Program-made: the position numbers and the translations under genes
Assembly: GCA_025800285.1 (NCBI GenBank)
Contig: JAOXRX010000037.1
Location: 52,651 to 116,650 of the forward strand
DNA from: Alphaproteobacteria bacterium
GTDB taxonomy: Bacteria > Pseudomonadota > Alphaproteobacteria > JAOXRX01
Direction: 5' to 3'
DNA: 64,000 nt
The notes under the pieces: generated by a model
The model's input: the letters and a program-made list of their open reading frames with translations, nothing else
Told to the model about the DNA's origin: nothing
The model's database searches: none
Shown here: positions 11,934 through 55,085 of the stretch, one piece after another
Position numbering within the stretch: position 1 is the first letter of the stretch
How the letters are laid out: each line of letters begins with the position of its first letter

Positions 11934-12557
11934 TTATTTTTTATATTGAACTATTAAATCAATAGTTCCTATTTCTGATATTGATCTAAATTCTTCTAAA
12001 AAACTTTTTATTTCAGATGTTAGATCTATGCATCCTATAGAACCAGGATATGTACCTCCATGGATAGAAAACCCACTTCTTCCTTTTGTATCAGTTCCCT
12101 TTTTGGGATCAAGCCATACTCTTCCATCTCCCCATGACTTTTCCCCTCCCGGAAAAGTTCCACCATAAAATATACCTTTAAATTTATCCCAATCACTTCT
12201 ATTATCAGTATACTGAATATCAGGTCTTACTTTATATTCTCCTTCAGGAATTGGACCTTTATTTTTTTTATCAGTATCTTCAGGATGTTGATATCCTGGT
12301 TTACCAGAAACACCATTCCAAGATTTAATAACCTCTTCCGCCCAAATGAGTTTTAAAATTTTGCCATTAAATAATAAATAAGGTTTTCCTTCTCTTTGAT
12401 ATATTTTCTTTAAATGGCATCTACAATTTGGATGTATAGGTAGTTTAGGAGCATCTTGCATTTTATCAAACCTTTTTCCTTGATGTTCTTTGCATTTATC
12501 ACAAATATTGTCTCCTTCGTTTTGATAAACCCAATCATAAATTTCATATTGTTGCAT
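11934..12557 (-). CDS. Candidate polymorphic toxin. The N-terminus carries a zinc-ribbon-like segment with the MuF (phage head-morphogenesis) C-terminal motif HPNCRC. The C-terminal domain resembles an L,D-transpeptidase (YkuD/Tlde1-like).
   Basis: ICDKCKEHQGKRFDKMQDAPKLPIHPNCRCHL, then GPIPEGEY, then FSIHGGTYPGSIGCIDL (LDT catalytic His ... S-x-G-C-I). The start overlaps the upstream gene's stop as TAATG. Confidence 0.6.
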   Translation of the reverse strand: MQQYEIYDWVYQNEGDNICDKCKEHQGKRFDKMQDAPKLPIHPNCRCHLKKIYQREGKPYLLFNGKILKLIWAEEVIKSWNGVSGKPGYQHPEDTDKKNKGPIPEGEYKVRPDIQYTDNRSDWDKFKGIFYGGTFPGGEKSWGDGRVWLDPKKGTDTKGRSGFSIHGGTYPGSIGCIDLTSEIKSFLEEFRSISEIGTIDLIVQYKK

Positions 12558-18851: not shown

Positions 18852-20027
18852 TTAAGATACATTTTCCAACCAAGATTCATAAAGTTTTTTCTGGTTGTAA
18901 TGCTTATTAGCCATAGCCTGCCTTAACTTGTCTTTGATTTCCGGCCAACCATCAACTAATTTTTGCAAATCATCATTCTTAAGAACAAGCAGAGTACTCT
19001 CTGTAACAGAGGTTACACTAGCAGTTCTGATTCCACCACCGCCAAGAGCACTAACTTCTCCAAAAAATTCTCCTTCTCCTAAACTTACAACACCATGCGA
19101 AAGATCCATTTCCATTTCACCCTTTGCAATAAAGTAAAGAGCATTTGATATTTCTCCTTTTTGAATTACTACAAATCTAGCAGGAACAAGTTTTTGCTTC
19201 AATACGGAAGTAATCTGAGCAAGTCTCTCTGGATCAAGCCCCTTAAAGAAAGGCACTTTTGACACCATGGAAAAGTTTAACATAAAGTCTTTTCTTTTTA
19301 TCTCTCTTGCAAAACCAGCAGCTAACAAACCTGCAGGCAAAGTAAACATAGCAATACCCATAACCGCAATTATACCACCAAACATTCTACCCGCTGGAGT
19401 TAAAGGCACAATATCTCCATAACCAACTGTTGTCATAGTAGCAACTGACCACCACATAGAAGCAGGAATGCTAGAGAATGTATCTGGTTGAACATCCTTC
19501 TCAAGCACCCAAATAACACCTGAAGCGAAAACAAATACTATAAGCATTGTAAACAATGCAGCAAACACAGGTTTTCTCTCATAGTAAAGCACTTCCCCCA
19601 GAGTTTTCAATGCTGGAGAATACCTAATAATCTTAAGTATCACAACAAGCTCTAGAATTAAAGCTGTATTTGGATTAATAGGAAATAGGAACCAAGGTAT
19701 AAAAGCTAAAAAGTCTATTACAGACAAAAATTGTGTCATAAACTTCAATCTACCAAAAACTGGATGGCGATTTTCTTCTCTTCTATCTTCCACACAAGAC
19801 CAAAGTCTCAATATAAACTCAACAAAGAAAACAGCTTTTGCTGTTAAATCTATTGATTTAAACCACATTGAGAAACCTTGATTTATAGCTTCTACACTAT
19901 CTAAACAAAGGGAGAAAACATTAAACAGTATTAGAGATATAATAAAAACTCTAAATATGTTGTACCCATCATTATATCTATTATTATCAGATAGTATGTC
20001 AAATGTTTTTTGTCTTAGTCTTACCAT
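18852..20027 (-). CDS. Cyclic-nucleotide-gated potassium channel (MlotiK1-like): a 6-TM ion-transport domain with a K+ selectivity filter, plus a C-terminal cNMP-binding domain.
   Basis: Selectivity filter TTVGYGDIVP. CNB-domain phosphate-binding cassette FGEVSALGGGGIRTASVTSVTESTLLVL. Confidence 0.8.
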   Translation of the reverse strand: MVRLRQKTFDILSDNNRYNDGYNIFRVFIISLILFNVFSLCLDSVEAINQGFSMWFKSIDLTAKAVFFVEFILRLWSCVEDRREENRHPVFGRLKFMTQFLSVIDFLAFIPWFLFPINPNTALILELVVILKIIRYSPALKTLGEVLYYERKPVFAALFTMLIVFVFASGVIWVLEKDVQPDTFSSIPASMWWSVATMTTVGYGDIVPLTPAGRMFGGIIAVMGIAMFTLPAGLLAAGFAREIKRKDFMLNFSMVSKVPFFKGLDPERLAQITSVLKQKLVPARFVVIQKGEISNALYFIAKGEMEMDLSHGVVSLGEGEFFGEVSALGGGGIRTASVTSVTESTLLVLKNDDLQKLVDGWPEIKDKLRQAMANKHYNQKKLYESWLENVS

Positions 20028-21133: not shown

Positions 21134-21742
21134 TTAGTTTAAAACTAACTGTCTTTTAGCATCAGAAGTAAAAGAAAGCTTAGGCTTAACTTCTTTAGCT
21201 TTATCATATTTAATAGAGTTTTCTCTCTCTGAGAATGAGTATTCTTCTTCATATTTCTTTAAAAAGCCTCTATTCATAGCATTTTGAACACTGCTTCTTT
21301 CAAGAACCTCTAGTGGTAAAGCTCTTTCAAGAACTTCTTCATAAAAGTTATCAGCATAACCAGATGCATGTTTTTCAATACCTGTAACAACTAGATCTTC
21401 ATTTTCACCTCTTGACATAAAGAGATCTGACAAACTATCTAAAAGGAAAGGAATTCTTCTACAGTCACACACTTCCAAACCCTTCTCTACCACACATCTG
21501 TGCTCTTTAATATCTTCAGGTATCAAATCTTTAAATAATTCTGGAACTCTACTTGAGCTAAATAATCCTTGATGAACAGTGATTAAGTTAATTGTCTCTT
21601 CAACTAAGTCTTCTCTTAGAATATTTCTATCTTTTAAGTTATCTTTATACTCTTTAATAGTTCTAGCTATTAATTTACTTTTTTCTGCTGTTCTTTTTTT
21701 CATTTTCTTAACTTCTGCTATTGTTAAAACTCTCTCTGACAT
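21134..21742 (-). CDS. Hypothetical protein (202 aa) with a Cys cluster (HRCVVEKGLEVCDCRR). Last gene of a tight three-gene cluster.
   Basis: ORF track. No recognised domain. It sits 15 nt downstream of the preceding ORF. Confidence 0.5.
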   Translation of the reverse strand: MSERVLTIAEVKKMKKRTAEKSKLIARTIKEYKDNLKDRNILREDLVEETINLITVHQGLFSSSRVPELFKDLIPEDIKEHRCVVEKGLEVCDCRRIPFLLDSLSDLFMSRGENEDLVVTGIEKHASGYADNFYEEVLERALPLEVLERSSVQNAMNRGFLKKYEEEYSFSERENSIKYDKAKEVKPKLSFTSDAKRQLVLN

Positions 21743-21757
21743 TTATTTTCACCTTTC

Positions 21758-22303
21758 TTAGATTATCGATAACAACTTTCCTCTTGGTATAACTTTTCCA
21801 CTTAGTGTTTTTATTTTTACATTATTATTATGTAATTTTTGATATTCAATATACTTAATATCCTCTATGAAGTCTCTAAAATCATCAAGAGAACCACCAG
21901 TTTCTTTTATTTGCTGATAACCCTTAACTTCAATTTCAGACCTAATTCTTTTATCCGCAATAACACCTGCAGGAAGAGATTTAGCCACATCTACCATATC
22001 AACTCCTTTATCATTAGCTCGCTCTATTGCAAAAAACATTAAATCTCTATTTTCAATTTTCTCTGCAAAATCTTTCGGCATATGAGACATAACATCAACT
22101 ATTTCAATTAAGTTAGCAGATTTAAGAGCCTGCTTCAATATATGTCTATCATATCTGAATTCTTCACCCATGATTTCTGAATATAGCATAGAAACACTAT
22201 TCTTATACCCCTTTTTTTCAGAAGCCATCATGGATATTAAAATCCTAGCTTTAGCTTTTTTATAAGATTCTTTTTCGAACTCAGCCTTATATTTATTAGA
22301 CAT
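21758..22303 (-). CDS. Hypothetical protein (181 aa). Middle gene of the cluster.
   Basis: ORF track. No recognised domain. Its start abuts the upstream ORF's stop (22303/22305). Confidence 0.5.
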   Translation of the reverse strand: MSNKYKAEFEKESYKKAKARILISMMASEKKGYKNSVSMLYSEIMGEEFRYDRHILKQALKSANLIEIVDVMSHMPKDFAEKIENRDLMFFAIERANDKGVDMVDVAKSLPAGVIADKRIRSEIEVKGYQQIKETGGSLDDFRDFIEDIKYIEYQKLHNNNVKIKTLSGKVIPRGKLLSII

Positions 22304-31925: not shown

Positions 31926-33308
31926 ATGATTAATGAAATTAAATCTGAAATAGCTTTTTTGAAAGACCATCATCTAGAAAAAGAGGTCTGGAAAGAGACT
32001 CCTCTAGACTTGATAAAGAGACTTACATCAAATATAAAAGCTCATAACAAAGAACAAAAGTCTAAGCTGATTGAAGAAGTTAGAGACTTTATTGCTAAAG
32101 GCAAAGGTAATGACGACTCATTTGATTTTGTAACAAGAGAAGATAAAAAGTTTTACAAAGAAATTCATATATACAGACATAAAAACAAAGTTGTTGCAAG
32201 AATCGATAGGACAATGGATGACGGATTCGGTAAACACACTCCATTTGAGAACTTTGTAACAATTGAATACGATGAAGATAGCAATGAAAAAATACAAGCA
32301 AAAAAAATAAATATTTTAGGATTAGAGTATGTTCCATATCCAGCTAATCTAATCTTTGCTGAAAAACTTTTTTCTCATATAGCAGGAGAAGTTGTAGATG
32401 GGAAAGACCATGACCGCAAACATTATGACGGATTCATTAAAGAGATAGCTCATGAGGTTCCTGATATATTTGCCTCTGATGAGCAAAAAGAAAAAGATAA
32501 AGAGATAGCAGAGGAAAACAAATATAAAATATGGAAAAAAGAAAAAGGTTTAGACTCTGATAGGAAGCTACATAAAGAAGATCTCAGTAACAATATAATT
32601 TATAAGTGTTTAATCCAAGCCTTAGAAGATAGCGATTTAAATAGCATAGATACTGACGGCTTAACAGAAGAAGATATATTAAAGAATCTTGTTAGCAAAA
32701 TACAGCTTAAAAATGATGAGTTAAGTAAAGAACTCAAAAGACAAGCAAAAGAGTTTTTGGATCCAAATTATGGAAACGACAGCTTCAATATGGAGAAAAA
32801 ACTTAAAGATGGTGCTTTAATATACTCTATTGATAGAGATAGAAAAAACAATAAAATAGATGCAAACATAAAATACATGCAAAAAGGGGAGAGAAAGACT
32901 AAGCATATACATATGTTTGACCTTATTCATATGGTTTACGATGAAGATGAAAACAACCCAGGAGAGTTCGTATTATATCAAATGTATATAATGGGTAAGA
33001 AATACCCTGTAACAAAGCAATGGGAATGGCTAGGAGAGAGATTCTATAATTATTTGTTATTTGAACTACAAATATCTGATGATAACCATGTTGATCTAAA
33101 CCAGATGGGAGAAGTTCTTGATATTCTTGAAAACCGCTGGCAAGACCATCGTTATATAGGTAATGAATATCTAGAAGAAAGAAAAGTTCTTTTAGATAAT
33201 AAATTTGAAGACAAGGACGAAAGATACGAAAGACTACAAAAAGAAGAACAACTTCGTATTAAAAAGAAATATGAAGAACTCTATAAAATGGATTTAAAAC
33301 CTTTATAG
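31926..33308 (+). CDS. Hypothetical highly charged (Lys/Glu/Asp-rich) 460-aa protein with no signal peptide, no TM and no recognisable domain.
   Basis: ORF track. Compositionally unusual and sits between conserved core genes (nusB, lptE-leuS). Confidence 0.6.
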   Translation: MINEIKSEIAFLKDHHLEKEVWKETPLDLIKRLTSNIKAHNKEQKSKLIEEVRDFIAKGKGNDDSFDFVTREDKKFYKEIHIYRHKNKVVARIDRTMDDGFGKHTPFENFVTIEYDEDSNEKIQAKKINILGLEYVPYPANLIFAEKLFSHIAGEVVDGKDHDRKHYDGFIKEIAHEVPDIFASDEQKEKDKEIAEENKYKIWKKEKGLDSDRKLHKEDLSNNIIYKCLIQALEDSDLNSIDTDGLTEEDILKNLVSKIQLKNDELSKELKRQAKEFLDPNYGNDSFNMEKKLKDGALIYSIDRDRKNNKIDANIKYMQKGERKTKHIHMFDLIHMVYDEDENNPGEFVLYQMYIMGKKYPVTKQWEWLGERFYNYLLFELQISDDNHVDLNQMGEVLDILENRWQDHRYIGNEYLEERKVLLDNKFEDKDERYERLQKEEQLRIKKKYEELYKMDLKPL

Positions 33309-41877: not shown

Positions 41878-42501
41878 TTATTTTTTCTTTTCTTTAATTA
41901 GCTCGTAAGCTTTGTTTATTTCTGCCATTTTCTTTTCTAAAAGACTTATCATTTCTACAGGCATTCCGCAAGCAATTAAATGATCTGGATGATATTTTTT
42001 CACAAGATAATGATATCTTAATTTAAGCTCTTCTTTAGAAACTCCCTCATTAACTCCTAAAATGAAGTACGGATTTGATAAATCATAAACATTATTTATA
42101 TTACAAATCCTTAAAAAAGAACTATTATCTATTTGAAATATTTTTGCAACACTTCTTATCTCTTCTAAAGCCTCATCACTAAGCTTACCATTTGCTTTAG
42201 CTATTTGTATAAAAGCTGACAATAACTCTTCCAAGACTTCTGGGTATTTCTTAAATTTTTTATAAAGAACCTTTGCATGCAAATCAAACCCTTTAATTTC
42301 TTTAGAGGATAAATCAAATATTCTTTCAACATTGCCTATTTCCTCTTTCTTTGATTTAAAGATATCAAAAAAAACTTTCTTTTTTAAGAACAAATCATCA
42401 TCTCCAGCACGAGCAACTTTAGCAGACAAAGACACGATAGCAGAAGTTGTGTTTATCTGCTGATTTATTTCTTTTATCTTGCCTATGATTTTCTTAATCA
42501 T
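41878..42501 (-). CDS. DjlA-like co-chaperone: a TerB-like domain with a C-terminal J-domain.
   Basis: C-terminal J-domain with HPD (NPYFILGVNEGVSKEELKLRYHYLVKKYHPD). No N-terminal TM seen. Confidence 0.65.
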   Translation of the reverse strand: MIKKIIGKIKEINQQINTTSAIVSLSAKVARAGDDDLFLKKKVFFDIFKSKKEEIGNVERIFDLSSKEIKGFDLHAKVLYKKFKKYPEVLEELLSAFIQIAKANGKLSDEALEEIRSVAKIFQIDNSSFLRICNINNVYDLSNPYFILGVNEGVSKEELKLRYHYLVKKYHPDHLIACGMPVEMISLLEKKMAEINKAYELIKEKKK

Positions 42502-43180
42502 TTTTATTCTCGTTTATAAGATCAAATATTTTCTCTTTTATAGAATTATCACTAACAAACTTTACAGCTTCATCTAAAAATCCATCAATCAGCATTTCTC
42601 TTGCCAAGGATTCTGGAATCCCTCTACTTTGCAAATAGAACACTGCTGTTTTATCCAAGTTTCCAACCGTATTACCATGAGCACACTGAACATCATCATT
42701 ATAAATTTCTAACTCTGGTTTAGCCATAATTTTTGCATCATCTGATAGTACCATAGCTCTGTGCAACTGTTTAGCTTCTGTTTTAACAGCTCCTTCAGCA
42801 ACCAAACTCTTCATTAGAAGATTTGCTCTTGATTTGTCTTTTGCAATACCTCTAATATTTATTGAGGAAGAACATTTTGGCTTATCATGGAAAACATTTA
42901 TGTTAATATTAGCTTCTTGTTTATCTTTTAAAGAGTAAACACCCGCTATATTCGCTTCACAATTTTCTGACTCCATATTGACACTAATATCTATACTATT
43001 AGCTTTATTTATGAAAAAAGTTTCAAAATAAGATTTTTCTTCTTGTTTTACTTTTAGGCAAACATCATCTTCACTATCTAATAAATACAGATATAGTCTT
43101 GCATTTCTTTTTACGACAATGACATCTTCACTGTGAGCATCTATAATTCTATGTTCTGTATTTTCTGTTACATTAAGCAT
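42494..43180 (-). CDS. sufD: Fe-S cluster assembly protein SufD, unusually short (228 aa, corresponding to the C-terminal half of canonical SufD).
   Basis: …VQCAHGNTVGNLDKTAVFYLQSRGIPESLAREMLIDGF matches the SufD C-terminal region. Overlaps the sufC stop. Confidence 0.7.
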   Translation of the reverse strand: MLNVTENTEHRIIDAHSEDVIVVKRNARLYLYLLDSEDDVCLKVKQEEKSYFETFFINKANSIDISVNMESENCEANIAGVYSLKDKQEANININVFHDKPKCSSSINIRGIAKDKSRANLLMKSLVAEGAVKTEAKQLHRAMVLSDDAKIMAKPELEIYNDDVQCAHGNTVGNLDKTAVFYLQSRGIPESLAREMLIDGFLDEAVKFVSDNSIKEKIFDLINENKND

Positions 43181-45328: not shown

Positions 45329-45416
45329 AGAGCTTTTTTATAACAGAAAAAGAAAATAAAATCAATTATTGTTTTAAATAAAAAATAAAATTTTATAAAA
45401 TCAAGCGGATAAAAAA

Positions 45417-45459
45417 ATAGAGAAAAAGATCGAAATCTTTTTCTCTATTTACACTGTTC
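45417..45459 (-). terminator. Strong rho-independent terminator for the histidine-kinase gene: a perfect 16-bp stem followed by a T-run on the minus strand.
   Basis: AAATAGAGAAAAAGATcgaaATCTTTTTCTCTATTT at 45417-45452, preceded on the plus strand by A7. Confidence 0.7.
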
Positions 45460-45471
45460 TTTATGCTAAAA

Positions 45472-48400
45472 TTAATCAGTCCAATTTTCAAGCCAAGCAT
45501 TAAGAGCTGCTTTTGCTTCTTCTAATACTTCGTCTGCTTCTACAGCCATATCTTTTAAATCTTGCATTTCTTCTTTTTGAGAGTCTTTTTCAAGAGCTTC
45601 CATAAAGTTACCAACAATTTTAAGACCAATATTTCTAGACATTCCTTTTAGCAAATGAGCTTTTGATTTTATTTGATCTCTATCATTCTCAGATATTGCT
45701 TCTAGCAAGTCTTTTTGTGCCTCTTGTGAAGATGCTCCAAATTGAGCAACAAGACCTTGGAAAACATCTAAAGAGAAACTTTTCTTAAGATTTCCTAACA
45801 CTTCCATATCTAAATGCTTCATTAATTCTTCTTCTTGTAAATCTATTTTTTCCACAGATCCTCTGTTCCTTTCTAACGCACCCTTTAAATAGTTAGGGTT
45901 AATTGGTTTACCTATAAAGTCATTCATCCCTACTTCTCTACATAACTCTACATCTTTTTGTTTTATATTACCTGTTATAGCTATCACAGGTGTATTTGCC
46001 TTCATTTCATCTGTTAAAGATCTAATTTTTTTAGTAGCTTCTAATCCACTAATACCGGGCAAATCAATATCCATCAATATCGCTAAGAAGTTATTCTTAT
46101 CTATTAGGCTCAAACCTTCTTCCGCAGACCCAACAACTACTGGATTATATTTAAAGGACACCAAATATTCAGATACTATCTTTTGAGAAACAGGATCATC
46201 CTCGACAACAAGAACATAAGGAAGTCCTTTAACTTCTTCATTTTTCTCAATTTGCACAGATACCTCTAAAGATACTGGGTTTTTATGTTTTGGAACAGGT
46301 ATTTTATTCTTTTCTAAGTTTTTGTTAACACTCTCAAAAGAGAATCCTGAACCAACAGCATCTACATTTGCCATTCTAAGCATAGCACCTCTTAGATAAT
46401 CTGGGTCGACAGGCTTACCAATGAAATCATTCATCCCAGCTTTTCTGCAATCTTGTATATCCTCTTCAGAAACATTACCTGTAACAGCAATAATAGGAAC
46501 CTCAGCCTTTTTCTTATCCTCTAAAGACCTTATTCTTTTTGTTGTTTCCAACCCACTCATACCAGGCATATTTATATCCATAAGTATAAGGTCAAACTCT
46601 TCTGCTTTAATCCAATCTATAGCCTCTTTACCACTTCCTGCAACTTTAGTAGTATGGGCATCATTCTTTAAATAGCCTTCAATAATTTTTTGAGAAATAG
46701 CATCATCTTCTACTATAAGAACTCTATCTATTTTATTAGAGCCATCTTCAGATACTTGATTCAAATCTTTTTTCTTCTTCTCTGTATCATCTTCTTTTAG
46801 TTCTTCTTTTACTTCTTTAAGTTTTTCTTCTTTTTTGGCTTTTGTCTTTTTATTATTCTTTTGAGGACCACCTTCTTCTGAAGACTTACCTTCATCTTTT
46901 TCATCTATTAACTTAAATATTTCAAAAAGAGCTTGTTGAATATCTTCTGGAGAAACAGGCTTGCCTAAACAGAAGTTCACACCTTGCTCCATATATCTTT
47001 TCCTGTCTGCTTCCGCCACATTACCAGTAAGAGCAACAACAGGCATATTTTCCACACCTTCTTTTTGTCTTATATACTTACAAACTTCTATACCATTCAT
47101 ATCTGGCAAGCCCATATCTAAGAATACAAAATCAACATCGCCAGCATCTACCATACGTATAGCACTTGCTCCATCAGAAGCATATTTAGGCAATTGACCA
47201 TTTGAAGATAAGTATGACCCTACAACTTTTTGAGAAATAGCATCATCCTCAACAACAAGTACTTCATAAGACCTATCTTTTTGGTTCTCCATATAGTCCA
47301 TTTGCTCTGTTTTTTCTTCAATTGCATCAGCTATATCGAATTCAACTTCCCACCAGAATGTTGAACCATCGCCTTCTTTAGAAATAACTCCTATTTCTCC
47401 TCCCATAGCAACAACAAGCTTCTTACATATACTTAGACCTAGTCCAGTTCCACCAAAGTTTCTTGTAGTTGATTTATCAGCCTGCACAAACTCTTGGAAC
47501 AACTTATCTTTCGCATCTTCTGGAATACCAATACCTGTATCACGGACCTCTGCTCTAATCTTACATCTCTCTCCTGATCTTTTTATACTTCTTAGAGAAA
47601 CATAAACCCCACCCTCTTTTGTAAACTTAATAGAGTTACCTATCAGGTTAAGCATAACCTGTCTAAGCCTTGTTGGGTCACCATTTATAAATTGAGGAAT
47701 AGTATTATCAAAATCAGCTTTTAGCTCTATTCCTTGTTGTTCTGCTCTAGCCTTCATAGTTAGAACAATATTATCTATAAACTTATGTAAATCAAAAGGA
47801 ATGTCTTCCAGCTCCATATGTCCAGAAGAAAGCTTTGAGAAATCCAACACATCATTAAGTAGTGATAACAGTGCCTCACCAGAATAAGTCAAGTTATCTA
47901 GGAATTCTTGTTGTTTTTTATCTAACTCAGTATTAGCTAACATCCTAACCATACCCATAATACCATTCAAAGGAGTTCTAACCTCATGACTTAAGAAAGC
48001 AATATAACCAGACTTAGATTCACTCTCAGCACTTGCTTTATCAGCAATCTGTTGAATCGCTTTACCTCTTTCAGCCATTTTAAGCAATAGATTTGCTTCA
48101 ACTTCTTTTTCTTGCTCTATAATTTTCATTTTATGAGCCTGTTCTGAAACTTCTTTAAAATGTCTCTCTTCTGCTTTTTTTCTTAATATCTCTTCTTTTT
48201 TAGCTCTAATTCTTAAAGATCTTGCTTTCAAAAACCTCACATTCTCTAGAATTGCTGACAAAAATACTGAGAAAAACAAGCAATAAACTATCGGAGCCAT
48301 ATATAGCACAAAGTTATAAACAAAAGACTTCTCTATAGATTTCATTTGAAAAACATCAAATAAGAAAAGAGGTATTAATGCTGCACCCGCTAACAAACAA

Positions 48401-48900
48401 GAAAAACAGTATTTAGAAACTGTTTTTGGTTGTACAGACGAATAATAGCTACCTGTAACAAAGCATGTAAACAATGCAATAATCATACTTGCAAAACTAA
48501 TTGTCTCTTTTATTTTAAATCTAATGGTCGGAATAAAATTCATTGCAATTAAGAACACCAAACAAACTATTAGTGCATTTATATTCTTATTTATTTTTTC
48601 ATTTGTTAATTTTGTACTAAATATGCTTTTACAAAAAGATATGAAAAATATAGCCCAAACCAACATTAGAAAATTTGATATTACAGCAATATCTGTTATT
48701 GATAAGTTTAAGTTAAAAACCTCTACTTCTATCCCCGCTATTTGTTTAACATATATAGCTAAAAGCCCTGAAATAAAAAGTAAAAAAGACCATAAAAACT
48801 TATTGCTCTTTAGTATTTTAAAAAATTTAAAGTTAGTGTATGTTAAGGCTACAACCAAACCTGAGTCTAAATGACTTATTGATTCCATCCAAGAGTACAT
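45472..48900 (-). CDS. Hybrid sensor histidine kinase: N-terminal polytopic membrane sensor domain, HisKA and HATPase_c, three tandem receiver domains and a C-terminal HPt domain (1142 aa).
   Basis: H-box FLSHEVRTPLNGI. G2 box GGTGLGLSICKKL. Receiver modules VLVVEDDAISQKVV…FLDMGLPDMNG, VLIVEDDAISQKII…ILMDINMPGMSG and VLVVEDDPVSQKIV…ILMDIDLPGISG. HPt KAHLLKGMSRNIG. Confidence 0.9.
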   Translation of the reverse strand: MYSWMESISHLDSGLVVALTYTNFKFFKILKSNKFLWSFLLFISGLLAIYVKQIAGIEVEVFNLNLSITDIAVISNFLMLVWAIFFISFCKSIFSTKLTNEKINKNINALIVCLVFLIAMNFIPTIRFKIKETISFASMIIALFTCFVTGSYYSSVQPKTVSKYCFSCLLAGAALIPLFLFDVFQMKSIEKSFVYNFVLYMAPIVYCLFFSVFLSAILENVRFLKARSLRIRAKKEEILRKKAEERHFKEVSEQAHKMKIIEQEKEVEANLLLKMAERGKAIQQIADKASAESESKSGYIAFLSHEVRTPLNGIMGMVRMLANTELDKKQQEFLDNLTYSGEALLSLLNDVLDFSKLSSGHMELEDIPFDLHKFIDNIVLTMKARAEQQGIELKADFDNTIPQFINGDPTRLRQVMLNLIGNSIKFTKEGGVYVSLRSIKRSGERCKIRAEVRDTGIGIPEDAKDKLFQEFVQADKSTTRNFGGTGLGLSICKKLVVAMGGEIGVISKEGDGSTFWWEVEFDIADAIEEKTEQMDYMENQKDRSYEVLVVEDDAISQKVVGSYLSSNGQLPKYASDGASAIRMVDAGDVDFVFLDMGLPDMNGIEVCKYIRQKEGVENMPVVALTGNVAEADRKRYMEQGVNFCLGKPVSPEDIQQALFEIFKLIDEKDEGKSSEEGGPQKNNKKTKAKKEEKLKEVKEELKEDDTEKKKKDLNQVSEDGSNKIDRVLIVEDDAISQKIIEGYLKNDAHTTKVAGSGKEAIDWIKAEEFDLILMDINMPGMSGLETTKRIRSLEDKKKAEVPIIAVTGNVSEEDIQDCRKAGMNDFIGKPVDPDYLRGAMLRMANVDAVGSGFSFESVNKNLEKNKIPVPKHKNPVSLEVSVQIEKNEEVKGLPYVLVVEDDPVSQKIVSEYLVSFKYNPVVVGSAEEGLSLIDKNNFLAILMDIDLPGISGLEATKKIRSLTDEMKANTPVIAITGNIKQKDVELCREVGMNDFIGKPINPNYLKGALERNRGSVEKIDLQEEELMKHLDMEVLGNLKKSFSLDVFQGLVAQFGASSQEAQKDLLEAISENDRDQIKSKAHLLKGMSRNIGLKIVGNFMEALEKDSQKEEMQDLKDMAVEADEVLEEAKAALNAWLENWTD

Positions 48901-48973
48901 AAATGAGATTCTCCTAATAAATATATATATTTTTTATTATTAAATCATTTAAAGCATATTTTCAAGTAAAAAA

Positions 48974-50260
48974 TCAATTAAACACTATGTTAAGCTTATT
49001 AATAGCATCTTTTATAGGAATAAAGAAATTAATCCCTATTGAATATTCGCCTATACCAGAAACACAAATTGCTAATAGATTTCCCTTATCATCTAGCAAA
49101 GGACCTCCGCTATTTCCAGCTTGCACATCAATATCTGTTTGAATTAATTCATAATTAGATCCTTCTTCTTGCCTCCAAGAACTTACCATTCCCTTAGAAA
49201 GAGTGTTTTTTAAAGATGTTAACAAAGGGGTTCCAACCGCATAGACCGTTTCTCCTAGCTCAGCTTGCTGATCTCTTATAGGTAAAAAAGGTAATTTTAA
49301 TCCCTCAGGTACATCTACTTTTAATAAAGCAATGTCTCTAGATTTATGAACCCGTATAATATCTGCATCCATTACTAAACCGTTTTGATTTTCCACAACA
49401 ACAGAATCAACATCCCCAACAACATGATAATTTGTTAACAAATAACCATCTTTAGAGATAAAAAACCCGCTTCCATGACCCGTTGCCGTTCTTATAAAAA
49501 CCGTAGAGTCCATTACTCGATTCATATTTTTCTGTATTTTATCTTTAAAGTTATTTGCTTTTTTTATCTCTAAACCTTTAAAAGGCCACTTTTCTCTTAA
49601 ACTTCTTTTATTTCTTGGTTTTGAAAATATTAATTTTTGAAACTCTTCATTATTTGCTAACTTATTAGCCGCTGAGGCAAAGGCTTCGTTTAACAAAACC
49701 TCTCTTCCAAATAAGTTTCTATTTTTTAATTTATAATACCCTCTAGTTTTTATACTCATAACTATTTCTTTTTTCGCCACTGAATAAACTTGCCAAAAAA
49801 CAGTCATTTCTCCCTCTCCAGAAACACCTTTGAGCCAATAAAAACTTCTATGGTTGCATTCATTCAATTTAATGCCTCTAATTTGAGCTCCAATTCTATA
49901 CCTAGCTCTTTTTTTATCAGAGGTTACTCCATACATTAAGCCAGGATCTCCGACTACATCATATCCTCTTAGGCTCATTTCTTCAAAAAACAAATCTTGA
50001 TAACTCATTTCTTTAGCAATTTTTCTAATCCCCTTCCAAACCAAACTGTCTAAAGAAGAAGAACACTTTAAACTAAGCATTCTTTTACCTATAATTGCTC
50101 CTCGGGGTAAAGAGTAAGAAACTTTATCTAAAATTATTGGCTCTGGCAGATTGTTTTCATATCTATTATGATACTCTATTAATTCAGGCTTTATTATTTG
50201 CATTTTATTACAAGAGCTAATAGCAAAAAGCATAAAAAAACATGTAATTATTTTTTTCAT
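48974..50260 (-). CDS. Lipoprotein trypsin-like serine protease (S1 family, no PDZ) with a roughly 230-aa N-terminal domain of unknown function.
   Basis: Lipobox FAISSC. Catalytic triad contexts TNYHVV, DIALLKV and GNSGGPLL. Confidence 0.75.
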   Translation of the reverse strand: MKKIITCFFMLFAISSCNKMQIIKPELIEYHNRYENNLPEPIILDKVSYSLPRGAIIGKRMLSLKCSSSLDSLVWKGIRKIAKEMSYQDLFFEEMSLRGYDVVGDPGLMYGVTSDKKRARYRIGAQIRGIKLNECNHRSFYWLKGVSGEGEMTVFWQVYSVAKKEIVMSIKTRGYYKLKNRNLFGREVLLNEAFASAANKLANNEEFQKLIFSKPRNKRSLREKWPFKGLEIKKANNFKDKIQKNMNRVMDSTVFIRTATGHGSGFFISKDGYLLTNYHVVGDVDSVVVENQNGLVMDADIIRVHKSRDIALLKVDVPEGLKLPFLPIRDQQAELGETVYAVGTPLLTSLKNTLSKGMVSSWRQEEGSNYELIQTDIDVQAGNSGGPLLDDKGNLLAICVSGIGEYSIGINFFIPIKDAINKLNIVFN

Positions 50261-50348
50261 TTTTTAATCTTTCTTTTTTAAAAAAATTATCCTATAATCA
50301 TGACGAAATACATTAAAGAAAATTTAACAAATTTACAAGAGGAATTTT

Positions 50349-50696
50349 ATGGAATACGATAAAAATAATATATTTGCAAAGATATTAAGAGGGGAAATAC
50401 CTAACGATACAGTTTATGAAGATGAATATTGTTTAGCATTTAATGACTTGTATCCAAAGTCTGAAGTTCATATCGTAGCAATACCAAAAGGAGAATATAT
50501 CAATTTTGCCCACTTCAATTCTAATGCTAGTGATATAGAAATATCTAATTTCTTTAAGGCTATATCAAATATAATAAGAGAAAAAAACATTGAATTAGGC
50601 TGTCAAATACTTTCAAATTGCGGTGAAAAAGGTGGACAAGAAATTCCTCATTTCCACATGCATATATTAAGTGGGAATAAAATAAAACTTGACTAA
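50349..50696 (+). CDS. HIT-family protein (HinT-like nucleotide phosphoramidase).
   Basis: Histidine triad EIPHFHMHILSG. 115 aa. Confidence 0.9.
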   Translation: MEYDKNNIFAKILRGEIPNDTVYEDEYCLAFNDLYPKSEVHIVAIPKGEYINFAHFNSNASDIEISNFFKAISNIIREKNIELGCQILSNCGEKGGQEIPHFHMHILSGNKIKLD

Positions 50697-50736: not shown

Positions 50737-51423
50737 ATGAAAAAGAATTTATTTGTATTAATTTTATTGCTGTGCACTTCTTGCTCTTACCAGAAATATA
50801 ATATTTTTGGTGGTAAAGTTATGTACGCAGAAGATATAAAACCAGAATATAAAAAAGCTCAAGCAGTTAAAGAGTATAAAGAAGAAACAATAGTAGCAGA
50901 AAAAGAAGAAAGCTCTAATCGACCTCAGATAAAAGAGTTAAAAGTTGGAGAGTTTCCTAATATAAAAGACATCCCAACAGAGCCTAAAAACTTCCCTAAA
51001 AAAGCTGACATAGATAATCAGAAAAGAGATCTTTTATCAAAAACTACTGTTATAGAAAGTAACTCTGCAATTATAACAGAGTCAATCTTCTCTGGCTTTG
51101 ATGACGAGTTATTGCAATTTACTGTTTCAGATATAATGAGCAGAAACTTACCGAAAGAATATAAAGATCAAAGAGCCTTACTATCCGCTTCAATTAAAAA
51201 TGAAATATCTGCTGATGATTTATCAGCTATAGAACTAATCGCAAAAGATCGTATTATAAATATAAAACCTATATTACTATCTTTCAATAAAGATTCAAAT
51301 GATGCATTTATTGAAGAGACTATCTCTACACTACTATTAATGGGAATTGACCCTTCAATGGTATATGTAAATAGAAAAAATTCATCTAAAAACCTTAATG
51401 CAGAAGTATATCTGTACTACTAA
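50737..51423 (+). CDS. Hypothetical lipoprotein (228 aa).
   Basis: Signal peptide with Cys (LLLCTSCS). No recognised domain. Confidence 0.5.
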   Translation: MKKNLFVLILLLCTSCSYQKYNIFGGKVMYAEDIKPEYKKAQAVKEYKEETIVAEKEESSNRPQIKELKVGEFPNIKDIPTEPKNFPKKADIDNQKRDLLSKTTVIESNSAIITESIFSGFDDELLQFTVSDIMSRNLPKEYKDQRALLSASIKNEISADDLSAIELIAKDRIINIKPILLSFNKDSNDAFIEETISTLLLMGIDPSMVYVNRKNSSKNLNAEVYLYY

Positions 51424-54179: not shown

Positions 54180-55085
54180 ATGAGAAAAAATAAACTATAT
54201 ATATTGCTATTTATAATATTTGCTACATTTATTATTGTGCACTTATTTGGGAACTATGCTATATCAGTTATACCCACAACAATTTATAACACTAAAGATT
54301 TATATAAAGCTTATGAAATAAAAGATAACAAGCTAATAGCAAGAGATAAATCAAATCTTGTTAGAGAGATTGAAGCTCAAACATTCCCTGGGACAGTATG
54401 GAAGATTGCAGAAAAAATTAAGGTTAATAATATAGAATTATATAAAGCTCAAACTCCTGAATATTGGAACACTCCTAAAGACTTCTATTTTTATATAGAT
54501 GCTAGAAGTGTAAAAACAAAGTTTATAAAACCCAGAGCTAGAAAACTTATTTTACCAAACAAAGAAGATTTATTAGAAAAACTTAACAAGATAAAGAAGC
54601 AAACTCAAAAAGAGTTAATACCATATATATGGGGAGGCAACACTTTACAAGGAATAACTGAAAATAGAAAATTTTATTCAAGAGGTAAAGACTTATCAAA
54701 ATTAAACAAACAAGACAAAAAACAATTCTTTCTACAAGGTCTAGACTGTACAGGACTCTTATACTATATAACAGATGGCTATACACCTAGAAACTCATCT
54801 TGGTTAAGAACATTTGGAGACCCTGTAGGCATAGAAGATAAAAGTATTGATGATATAATTAAAATGGTAAAACCTCTTGATATAATAGTTCATCAAGGTC
54901 ATATAGTGTTAATATTAAACTCTGAAGAAACCATTGAATCAAGATTAAGTAAAGGCGGAGGAGTAGTAATAACTCCAATTAGAGAAAGATTTGAAGAACT
55001 ATTTGAAACAAAAGTTCCTTTAAATCATGCTCCATTAGGCAAAAGTGAAAACAGCTGGTTTGTCATAAGACGATTCGTAAAATAA
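54180..55085 (+). CDS. NlpC/P60 (C40) family peptidoglycan peptidase with an N-terminal TM anchor.
   Basis: Catalytic Cys context YIWGGN…GLDCTGLLYYI and His context GHIVLIL. Confidence 0.7.
   Translation: MRKNKLYILLFIIFATFIIVHLFGNYAISVIPTTIYNTKDLYKAYEIKDNKLIARDKSNLVREIEAQTFPGTVWKIAEKIKVNNIELYKAQTPEYWNTPKDFYFYIDARSVKTKFIKPRARKLILPNKEDLLEKLNKIKKQTQKELIPYIWGGNTLQGITENRKFYSRGKDLSKLNKQDKKQFFLQGLDCTGLLYYITDGYTPRNSSWLRTFGDPVGIEDKSIDDIIKMVKPLDIIVHQGHIVLILNSEETIESRLSKGGGVVITPIRERFEELFETKVPLNHAPLGKSENSWFVIRRFVK

What the first reader, a model, noticed from the sequence alone, without database searches (positions are those of the whole stretch)
45472..48900. Orphan hybrid histidine kinase with three tandem receiver domains and an HPt domain
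A 1142-aa protein has a roughly 290-aa polytopic membrane N-domain, a HisKA/HATPase core, three complete REC modules (each with the DD…D…K signature and a near-identical VLVVEDD[AP][IV]SQKI[VI] start, suggesting internal duplication) and a C-terminal HPt (HLLKGMS). No response-regulator gene is adjacent. Reduced-genome host-associated alphaproteobacteria usually keep only a few simple two-component pairs, so a triple-REC phosphorelay hub in one polypeptide is unusual. It may integrate several signals or act as a phosphate sink.
Basis: partly seen in the sequence, partly recalled or inferred. Interest (0 to 1): 0.5.

Follow-up and report, generated by a model that had tools for sequence, protein, structure and literature searches.

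The report
Membrane sensor kinase with three receivers
This is a real, intact membrane-bound signalling kinase that carries three working-looking phosphate-receiver modules plus a phosphotransfer module; that is an uncommon but already catalogued layout of a very well-known protein class, found here in an uncultured alphaproteobacterium.

Summary
ORF 45472-48900 (-) encodes a 1142-aa protein with seven membrane helices, a coiled-coil linker, HisKA, HATPase_c, three receiver (REC) domains and a C-terminal HPt. All catalytic residues are present: His305, the N/G1/G2 boxes, Asp595/775/944 with their acidic pocket, Thr and Lys, and HPt His1082.

- The REC triplication is ancient. Paralogues are 31-53% identical and orthologues 61-89%, and the layout survives in a relative only 33% identical overall.
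- All three RECs are under purifying selection as strong as the kinase core (dN/dS 0.02-0.04).
- Being an orphan is normal for this class.
- Multi-REC hybrid kinases are common: 50 of the 121 proteins examined have three or more RECs. The exact T-R-R-R-P order is rare.
- The host is an uncultured alphaproteobacterial MAG of unknown lifestyle. "Reduced, host-associated" is not shown.

The protein most likely runs a His-Asp-His phosphorelay to an unlinked regulator, with the extra RECs acting as in-cis phosphate acceptors. The roles of the individual RECs cannot be resolved computationally.

The least ordinary part is the 7TM sensor. It has no detectable relatives outside its own small family. 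Interest is low to moderate.

The parts
45472..48900 (-). Complete gene for the 1142-aa hybrid sensor histidine kinase (7TM, coiled coil, HisKA, HATPase_c, REC1, REC2, REC3, HPt). Identical to NCBI MCV6599127.1.
48196..48864 (-). N-terminal sensor module (aa 13-235) with seven predicted membrane helices, short loops and no extracytoplasmic domain.
   Evidence: Hydropathy scan. AF2 model with 7 helices, pLDDT 70. dN/dS 0.023. No Pfam hit for the window protein. Only its own family found among 1.84 billion representatives.
48034..48195 (-). Juxtamembrane coiled-coil signalling linker (aa 236-289). It contains the motif EERHFKEVSEQAHKMKIIEQEKE, which is also shared with the two-REC relative P0011.
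   Evidence: No amino-acid changes against the 94% relative.
47821..48015 (-). HisKA (DHp) domain, aa 296-360. The phospho-accepting His305 is at 47986-47988, in SHEVRTPLNGI.
47338..47682 (-). HATPase_c catalytic domain, aa 407-521, with N box (NLIGNSIKFT), G1 (DTGIGI) and G2 (GGTGLGLS).
46906..47268 (-). REC1, aa 545-665. Asp595 is at 47116-47118 and Lys647 at 46960-46962. This is the most divergent of the three copies.
   Evidence: dN/dS 0.019.
46729..46905 (-). Lys/Glu-rich low-complexity linker between REC1 and REC2 (aa 666-724). It evolves fast and carries in-frame indels.
   Evidence: dN/dS 0.38 with 18-nt and 12-nt indels against the 94% relative
46366..46728 (-). REC2, aa 725-845. Asp775 is at 46576-46578 and Lys829 at 46414-46416.
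   Evidence: dN/dS 0.040.
46219..46365 (-). Linker between REC2 and REC3 (aa 846-894).
   Evidence: dN/dS 0.085.
45859..46218 (-). REC3, aa 895-1014. Asp944 is at 46069-46071 and Lys998 at 45907-45909.
   Evidence: dN/dS 0.019.
45547..45753 (-). HPt domain, aa 1050-1118. The phospho-accepting His1082 is at 45655-45657, in KAHLLKGMS.
   Evidence: dN/dS 0.012.
45415..45450 (-). Intrinsic-terminator-like hairpin with a perfect 16-bp stem and a T-run, 22 nt after the stop codon. It separates the kinase from sufB.
   Evidence: Folding energy -17 kcal/mol, z = -4.4, 0 of 200 shuffles as stable.
48936..48965 (-). Sigma-70-like promoter match (TTGAAA-18-AATAAT, 10 of 12) in the 73-bp gap upstream of the start codon. 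Weak evidence only.
   Evidence: The number of promoter-like sites in the region is not above chance.

Best explanation
The gene encodes a functional, membrane-embedded 'unorthodox' (tripartite-type) hybrid sensor histidine kinase.

Proposed mechanism:
1. A seven-helix membrane module has no periplasmic domain. It senses an intramembrane or membrane-proximal cue, or a partner protein.
2. The signal passes through a conserved coiled-coil linker to the DHp/CA core, which autophosphorylates on His305.
3. The phosphoryl group moves intramolecularly to receiver aspartates, then to HPt His1082.
4. From there it goes to a response regulator encoded elsewhere in the genome.

The three receivers arose by ancient internal duplication of the single HPt-coupled receiver of an HK-REC-HPt ancestor. 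All three remain catalytically competent. The extra copies most likely act as tethered, competing phospho-acceptors that buffer or sink phosphate and tune flux and timing through the relay. They are unlikely to be dead spacers.

Shown: the domain composition, the catalytic residues, purifying selection on each module, the age of the duplication, and the lack of a linked regulator. Inferred: the direction of phosphate flow, which REC feeds the HPt, the sink or buffer role, and the nature of the signal.
For: - Pfam architecture is above gathering thresholds for every cytoplasmic domain.
- All phospho-accepting and catalytic residues are conserved in all three RECs of all five orthologues, and in the H-box, N/G1/G2 boxes and HPt.
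- Per-domain dN/dS against an 88%-nt-identical relative: TM 0.023, core 0.015, REC1 0.019, REC2 0.040, REC3 0.019, HPt 0.012. The REC1-REC2 linker is 0.38.
- The architecture is retained in a relative only 33% identical overall.
- The nearest named families are TorS, BarA and ArcB, all His-Asp-His relay kinases.
- REC2 and REC3 are most similar to each other (about 53%) and then to the single REC of T-R-P relatives (up to 49%). All 15 family RECs sit inside the HPt-coupled receiver clade.
- The beta1-alpha1 docking region is 57-67% identical between paralogues, against 28-51% for the rest of the domain.
- T-R-P class kinases are typically encoded without an adjacent regulator.
- A terminator-like hairpin separates the gene from the suf operon.
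Against: - No biochemical data exist for this protein or any orthologue.
- The cognate regulator is unknown, and the rest of the genome could not be searched.
- The higher conservation of beta1-alpha1 partly reflects the general conservation of that region in all receivers.
- The REC tree has only 121 columns. Support is low for the deeper nodes: family plus P0011 is monophyletic in 33% of bootstraps, and REC1 including P0005 in 31%.
- The sink or buffer role of the extra RECs is an analogy to other systems, not a result.
Confidence: 0.7

Rival explanations
1. Signal-integration hub. The extra receivers are inputs that accept phosphoryl groups from other histidine kinases, so several signals converge on the single HPt output.
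For: Multikinase networks in which one hybrid kinase's receiver is phosphorylated by another kinase are documented for GacS/RetS/LadS. All three RECs are phosphorylatable.
Against: In characterised multi-REC kinases the different RECs belong to different receiver clades, implying different partners (PMC8175716). Here all three come from one clade and keep a very similar beta1-alpha1 surface, which argues for a shared partner. No other kinase is seen in the 64-kb window.
Confidence: 0.15
2. RetS-like negative regulator. The protein does not signal forward. It acts mainly as a phosphatase or phosphate siphon, or by heterodimerising with another kinase through its DHp domain.
For: RetS kinase-region structures (6dk7, 6dk8) are among the closest solved sequences. 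RetS also has a 7TM sensor and tandem RECs. Weak 7TMR-DISM_7TM signals appear in two orthologues. The HisKA has the E-x-x-T phosphatase motif (HEVRTP), read directly from the sequence.
Against: The H-box His and the ATP-binding N/G1/G2 boxes are intact and constrained. A conserved HPt (dN/dS 0.012) implies forward transfer. From my own knowledge, RetS has no HPt.
Confidence: 0.08
3. ShkA-like regulation. One or two of the RECs are not phosphorylated. They act as ligand-binding or docking pseudo-receivers that autoinhibit the kinase until a small molecule releases them.
For: ShkA is an alphaproteobacterial DHp-CA-Rec1-Rec2 kinase and the second-closest solved sequence (6qrj). REC1 here lies right after the CA domain, like ShkA Rec1, and sits on a long branch.
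Against: ShkA Rec1 lacks the two acidic residues after beta1 (S255, P256). All three RECs here keep the complete acidic pocket, Asp, Thr and Lys in every orthologue. The REC1-REC2 linker is poorly conserved (dN/dS 0.38), unlike ShkA's conserved DDR linker motif.
Confidence: 0.06
4. Artefact: a mis-assembled or mis-called fusion of separate kinase, regulator and HPt genes.
For: In one 94%-identical relative the gene is called as two ORFs, HK-REC3 and HPt.
Against: A single uninterrupted ORF with the same layout occurs in four other independent assemblies. The split in the relative is a single extra G, and the downstream HPt is still under strong constraint.
Confidence: 0.01

Closest known systems
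Unorthodox / tripartite sensor kinases (TorS, BarA/GacS, ArcB; T-R-P class)
   Same: Membrane sensor, HisKA, HATPase_c, REC and C-terminal HPt in one polypeptide. These are the best NCBIfam matches. The class is usually encoded without an adjacent regulator. The expected chemistry is a His-Asp-His-Asp relay.
   Different: Three receivers instead of one. Scores fall below every curated equivalog cutoff (TorS 531 vs 677, BarA 509 vs 890, ArcB 445 vs 838). The sensor is an unrelated 7TM module.
7TMR-DISM hybrid kinases (Pseudomonas RetS/LadS; alphaproteobacterial 7TMR-DISMED2 HK-REC-HPt proteins such as those of Micavibrio)
   Same: A seven-helix membrane sensor directly upstream of a coiled-coil linker and hybrid kinase. 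Thirteen of the top 120 homologues carry PF07695 and/or PF07696. Their single REC is the closest outside relative of REC2/REC3. The family profile aligns co-linearly with P0050, P0058 and P0039. The RetS kinase region is among the nearest solved sequences.
   Different: No periplasmic DISMED2 domain. The window protein gives no Pfam 7TMR-DISM_7TM hit, and the orthologues are below gathering (25.9 and 18.9 bits vs 29). hhalign probability is 3%. There are three RECs plus an HPt; from my own knowledge RetS has two RECs and no HPt.
Myxococcus xanthus RodK (hybrid kinase with three receiver domains)
   Same: One kinase core followed by three receivers in cis. It is the classic studied case in which tethering influences which receiver is phosphorylated (title cited; the paper itself was not held).
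   Different: From my own knowledge, RodK is soluble and lacks an HPt, and its receivers are not equivalent. Here the kinase is membrane-bound, has an HPt, and all three RECs derive from one clade.
Pseudomonas brassicacearum Psebr_a3082 and RetS (multi-REC members of the GacS network)
   Same: Transmembrane hybrid kinases with three and two receivers respectively.
   Different: In those proteins only one REC clusters with the GacS-type receivers, implying distinct partners. Here the three RECs are paralogues from a single clade.
Caulobacter ShkA (DHp-CA-Rec1-Rec2; PDB 6qrj)
   Same: An alphaproteobacterial hybrid kinase with more than one REC. It is the second-closest solved sequence.
   Different: ShkA is cytosolic, its Rec1 is a c-di-GMP-binding pseudo-receiver without the acidic pocket, and it uses a separate HPt protein (and my own knowledge). 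All RECs here are canonical and the HPt is fused.

Membership tests
Hybrid / unorthodox sensor histidine kinase (T-R-P class) | HisKA (DHp) domain with a conserved phospho-accepting His | tested here: met
   PF00512 at 61.7 bits, above gathering 26.9. His305 lies in SHEVRTPLNGI.
Hybrid / unorthodox sensor histidine kinase (T-R-P class) | HATPase_c domain with N, G1 and G2 ATP-binding boxes | tested here: met
   PF02518 at 100.5 bits. NLIGNSIKFT, DTGIGI and GGTGLGLS are present.
Hybrid / unorthodox sensor histidine kinase (T-R-P class) | At least one receiver domain in cis with the acidic pocket, phospho-Asp, Thr/Ser and Lys | tested here: met
   Three RECs, each with E/D-D, D, T and K aligned to CheY D12/D13/D57/T87/K109.
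Hybrid / unorthodox sensor histidine kinase (T-R-P class) | C-terminal HPt domain with the HxxKG histidine | tested here: met
   PF01627 at 34.4 bits, above gathering 24.6. His1082 lies in KAHLLKG.
Hybrid / unorthodox sensor histidine kinase (T-R-P class) | ATP-dependent autophosphorylation and His-Asp-His transfer | not testable with these tools
   Requires biochemistry.
TorS / BarA / ArcB equivalogs (NCBIfam) | Whole-protein score at or above the curated cutoff | tested here: not met
   TorS 530.6 vs 676.5; BarA 509 vs 890; ArcB 445.2 vs 838.
7TMR-DISM receptors (RetS/LadS type) | 7TMR-DISM_7TM (PF07695) domain above the gathering score | tested here: not met
   No hit for the window protein even at E<=1. 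Orthologues P0004 (25.9 bits, E=1.1e-5) and P0005 (18.9 bits) are below gathering 29 but nearly full-length and co-linear. hhalign against true members gives probability 3%. A family HMM that includes the linker aligns co-linearly with P0050 at iE 1.8e-7 in a 121-sequence database. Distant homology remains possible.
7TMR-DISM receptors (RetS/LadS type) | Extracytoplasmic DISMED1 or DISMED2 ligand-binding domain | tested here: not met
   No PF07696 hit. The membrane helices start at about aa 13 and the loops are short.
7TMR-DISM receptors (RetS/LadS type) | Seven transmembrane helices preceding the cytoplasmic signalling module | tested here: met
   The AF2 model has helices at 13-30, 33-57, 68-93, 100-122, 128-156, 159-180 and 193-235. 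Hydropathy peaks agree.
Pseudo-receiver-containing kinases (ShkA type) | A receiver lacking the acidic pocket or phospho-Asp | tested here: not met
   All three RECs in five orthologues keep all five catalytic positions. ShkA Rec1 has S255 and P256 in place of the acidic pair.
RodK-type triple-receiver kinases | Kinase core followed by three receivers | tested here: met
RodK-type triple-receiver kinases | Sequence orthology or shared architecture (soluble, no HPt) | not tested
   No RodK sequence or paper was available. From my own knowledge its architecture differs, having no TM domain and no HPt, so this is a functional analogy only.
CckA (alphaproteobacterial cell-cycle hybrid kinase) | PAS sensor domains, a single C-terminal REC, and a separate HPt protein (ChpT) | tested here: not met
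   No PAS domain, three RECs and a fused HPt. The defining features of CckA are from my own knowledge.

The most novel reading that the evidence does not exclude
Two novel readings remain open.

First, the three paralogous, fully competent receivers keep the same docking surface. They could form an in-cis multi-site phosphate 'capacitor' that gives the relay a threshold or time delay. This would be a design principle distinct from characterised multi-REC kinases, whose receivers have different origins and partners.

Second, the 7TM module, which has no detectable relatives outside its own small family among 1.84 billion representative proteins, could define a new family of intramembrane sensors in a deep-branching uncultured alphaproteobacterial lineage.
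Probability: 0.2. Interest if true: 0.5.

Novelty: new member of a known kind. Interest (0 to 1): 0.25.

Why it matters
If all three receivers are phosphorylated from one kinase core, the protein would be a compact natural test case for how tethered duplicate receivers shape phosphate flux (buffering, thresholds, delays) in phosphorelays. So far that question has been studied mainly in systems whose receivers are heterogeneous (RodK, RetS, ShkA). The lineage-restricted 7TM sensor is also an uncharacterised input module.

Otherwise the finding is an ordinary, correctly read hybrid sensor kinase. It opens no long-standing question and says nothing by itself about the organism's lifestyle.

Tried and rejected
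1. GTDB species-representative scan with the whole protein. The back-translated patterns were dominated by generic receiver motifs such as MDINMPGM.
2. Metagenome scans with N-domain alignments. A1 had no stretch conserved enough to search with. A3's patterns matched 600 stretches, none a relative.
3. Profile-profile comparison of the N-domain with bona fide 7TMR-DISM 7TM regions gave probability 3%.
4. Foldseek of the AF2 N-domain model against the PDB gave a best E of 0.37 and only generic 7TM-bundle resemblance. The AFDB library was unavailable.
5. Exhaustive HMMER search of the N-domain profile against 1.84 billion representatives returned only its own family plus one weak multi-stretch hit (44 bits over 7 stretches).
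6. I considered a functional link to the upstream trypsin-like lipoprotein. The adjacency holds only within the close clade and is absent in P0005, so I did not include it in the system.
7. I considered co-transcription with sufBCD and set it aside because of the strong terminator-like hairpin.
8. I considered a replication origin at the strand and GC-skew switch near 50.3 kb. There is no DnaA-box enrichment or cluster.
9. The first bootstrap script was killed and re-implemented.
10. The RodK paper is not held.
11. Taxonomy could not be refined beyond 'Alphaproteobacteria bacterium'.
Full report
OBSERVATION. Pfam finds HisKA (aa 296-360), HATPase_c (407-521), three Response_reg domains (258 bits in total) and a C-terminal Hpt (1050-1118, 34.4 bits against a gathering score of 24.6). 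A receiver HMM places the three RECs at 545-665, 725-845 and 895-1014.

The N-terminal region is about 235 aa of polytopic membrane domain followed by about 55 aa of coiled-coil linker. A hydropathy scan gives six to seven segments. An AlphaFold2 model built on five orthologues gives seven long helices at pLDDT 70 and pTM 0.63.

The residues needed for chemistry are all present. These are His305 in SHEVRTPLNGI; the N, G1 and G2 boxes; Asp595, Asp775 and Asp944, each with the acidic pair, Thr and Lys; and His1082 in KAHLLKG.

No other receiver, HisKA-type kinase core or HPt is detectable in any ORF of 60 aa or more in the 64-kb window.

WHO CARRIES IT. The protein is identical to NCBI MCV6599127.1, annotated 'response regulator', from an 'Alphaproteobacteria bacterium' MAG on a 247,803-bp contig. 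The LeuRS encoded in the window is 79-83% identical to proteins of its own small clade and at most 58% identical to anything else. All named relatives are again just 'Alphaproteobacteria bacterium' or 'Rickettsiales bacterium' MAGs. The lineage is therefore deep-branching and uncultured, and its lifestyle is unknown.

The window is a core chromosomal region with gyrB, ligA, lpxC, accA, fabF, fabG, trxB, argS, mnmG and rsmG. It also carries OxyR, Lrp, a peroxiredoxin and a cyclic-nucleotide-gated channel. Nothing here establishes 'reduced-genome, host-associated'.

RELATIVES AND CONTEXT. Among 5.8 billion clustered proteins only five align over the full length. They are P0001 (94% identical), P0002 and P0003 (66-67%), P0004 (61%) and P0005 (33%). 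All have the same 7TM, HK, three-REC, HPt layout.

The gene order is recJ, an unknown gene and hinT on one strand, then a trypsin-like lipoprotein, this kinase, sufB, sufC, a short sufD, djlA-like, rsmB and tatD on the other. This order is conserved in the 61% relative and in the 94% relative. It is not conserved in the 33% relative. The neighbourhood therefore reflects shared ancestry of close genomes, not a functional module.

A perfect 16-bp hairpin with a T-run lies 22 nt after the stop codon (-17 kcal/mol, z = -4.4) and separates the kinase from sufB. None of the five contexts has a response regulator next to the gene.

THE THREE RECEIVERS. Orthologous copies are 61-89% identical within the close clade. 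Within a protein, REC1 is 31-37% identical to REC2 and REC3, and REC2 is 47-53% identical to REC3. The distant P0005 already has three RECs. The triplication is therefore old, not recent.

In an NJ tree of 44 receivers the four close orthologues of each copy form clades with 96-100% bootstrap support. All 15 family receivers, together with the two receivers of P0011, fall inside the clade of single receivers from alphaproteobacterial HK-REC-HPt kinases. P0011 is a two-REC relative that shares the juxtamembrane motif. Deeper nodes are weakly supported at 31-79%, and the clade of the family plus P0011 has 33%.

This differs from other multi-REC kinases in the same tree (P0040, P0041, P0077, P0096). 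In those, the first receiver belongs to a different, basal clade.

All three copies share it, and P0005 and P0011 carry close, partly degenerate forms.

Against an 88%-nt-identical relative (dS about 0.7), dN/dS values are as follows:
- 7TM module: 0.023
- Kinase core: 0.015
- REC1: 0.019
- REC2: 0.040
- REC3: 0.019
- HPt: 0.012
- Lys/Glu-rich REC1-REC2 linker: 0.38, with in-frame indels

All three receivers are thus maintained as tightly as the catalytic core.

THE SENSOR. The window protein's N-domain has no Pfam hit. Two orthologues give nearly full-length but sub-threshold matches to 7TMR-DISM_7TM (25.9 and 18.9 bits against a gathering score of 29). A profile-profile comparison with genuine 7TMR-DISM sensors is not significant, at probability 3%.

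A family HMM that includes the last helix and the linker aligns co-linearly with three genuine 7TMR-DISM kinases. These E-values come from a 121-sequence database, and part of the score comes from the coiled coil.

An exhaustive HMMER search of 1.84 billion representatives finds only the family itself plus one weak multi-stretch hit. Foldseek against the PDB finds nothing. I rate divergent 7TMR-DISM_7TM ancestry as plausible, roughly even odds, but unproven. The DISMED periplasmic domain is certainly absent.

HOW COMMON IS THE ARCHITECTURE. The closest named families are TorS, BarA and ArcB, all below their curated cutoffs. The closest solved sequences include the Caulobacter hybrid kinase ShkA (6qrj) and the RetS kinase region.

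In the 2010 census of 43,426 two-component proteins (PMC3018481):
- 1113 of 4650 hybrid kinases had two or more receivers.
- Among four-domain proteins, 196 were TRRP and 86 were TRRR.
- Only 20 proteins had five TCS domains.
- Only 30.5% of T-R-P kinases were next to a regulator.

In my own domain parse of the window protein and its 120 best hits, 50 have three or more receivers. The commonest orders are TRRP (31) and TRP (29). The exact order T-R-R-R-P occurs six times: the window protein, four orthologues and one unrelated protein, P0040.

So the layout is rare in detail but is an already catalogued variation of a very common theme. Being an orphan is the norm for this class.

MECHANISM. 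The best-supported reading is a forward phosphorelay from the 7TM sensor through the coiled coil to His305, then to receiver Asp, then to His1082, then to an unlinked response regulator. The extra, fully competent receivers would act as tethered alternative acceptors that buffer or drain phosphate.

The components, their integrity and the selection on them are shown. The direction of flow, the division of labour among the RECs and the signal are inferred. I considered four rivals:
- An integration hub receiving phosphate from other kinases. This is disfavoured because the three RECs share origin and docking surface, unlike RetS or Psebr_a3082.
- A RetS-like negative regulator. This is disfavoured by the intact ATP-binding boxes and the conserved HPt.
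- ShkA-like pseudo-receiver regulation. This is disfavoured because no REC has lost its acidic pocket, and the linker is unconstrained.
- An assembly artefact. This is excluded by several independent assemblies.

VERDICT. This is a new, uncharacterised member of the known class of unorthodox hybrid sensor kinases. It has an uncommon homotypic triple-receiver layout and a lineage-restricted 7TM sensor. Interest is low to moderate (0.25).

Noticed in passing
L085:2027-5462 (Logan SRR30515161), equivalent to window gene nt 3047 / aa 1016 (about window 45854): In the 94%-identical relative a single extra G (TGTGGG against TGT-GG) just after REC3 splits the gene into a 1040-aa HK-REC3 ORF and an overlapping 116-aa HPt ORF. 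The downstream HPt still shows dN/dS 0.012. The split is therefore an assembly or sequencing error or a very recent event, not an old gene fission.
   Followed up: partly
window 48974-50260 (-): The gene immediately upstream on the same strand (73-bp gap) encodes a 428-aa protein. It has a lipoprotein-like signal (MKKIITCFFMLFAISSC), a roughly 230-aa N-region with no family match, and a Trypsin_2 domain without a PDZ domain. Its adjacency to the kinase is kept in the 61% and 94% relatives but not in the 33% relative.
   Followed up: partly
window about 50260-50350: All genes from about 39.7 to 50.3 kb are on the minus strand and those after it are on the plus strand. The cumulative GC skew reaches its minimum here, and mnmG/rsmG lie 10 kb downstream. 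This looks like an origin-proximal strand switch, but DnaA-box-like sites are not enriched or clustered (24 found against 19.9 expected).
   Followed up: partly
window 42494-43180 (-): The sufD in the sufBCD cluster is short (228 aa) and matches only the C-terminal part of SufD models (profile positions 70-275 of 275). The same short form is present in the relatives' contigs.
   Followed up: no
window 50737-51423 (+), 54180-55085 (+), 31926-33308 (+), 21134-22303 (-): Several conserved-position ORFs (228, 301, 460, 202 and 181 aa) have no Pfam or NCBIfam match. The 228-aa ORF between hinT and recJ is syntenic in the 61% relative, where it is 248 aa.
   Followed up: no
window 18852-20027 (-) and 11934-12557 (-): A cyclic-nucleotide-gated ion-channel homologue (Ion_trans plus cNMP_binding) and a Tlde1-domain protein. 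Both are unusual for a strongly reduced endosymbiont genome.
   Followed up: no
Proteins P0007-P0018 (homologue list): Eleven Magnetococcales proteins of about 1680 aa parse as RRTRRPRTR, with nine TCS domains. This is the same architecture the 2010 census reported as unique to Magnetococcus Mmc1_3271, so it is conserved across the order.
   Followed up: no
Protein P0011 (Rhodospirillaceae MAG, 1006 aa): A two-REC (T-R-R-P) relative that shares the juxtamembrane motif FREASEQAHKMRV and a similar multi-helix N-terminus. It may represent an intermediate stage, or a reduction, of the receiver duplication series.
   Followed up: partly
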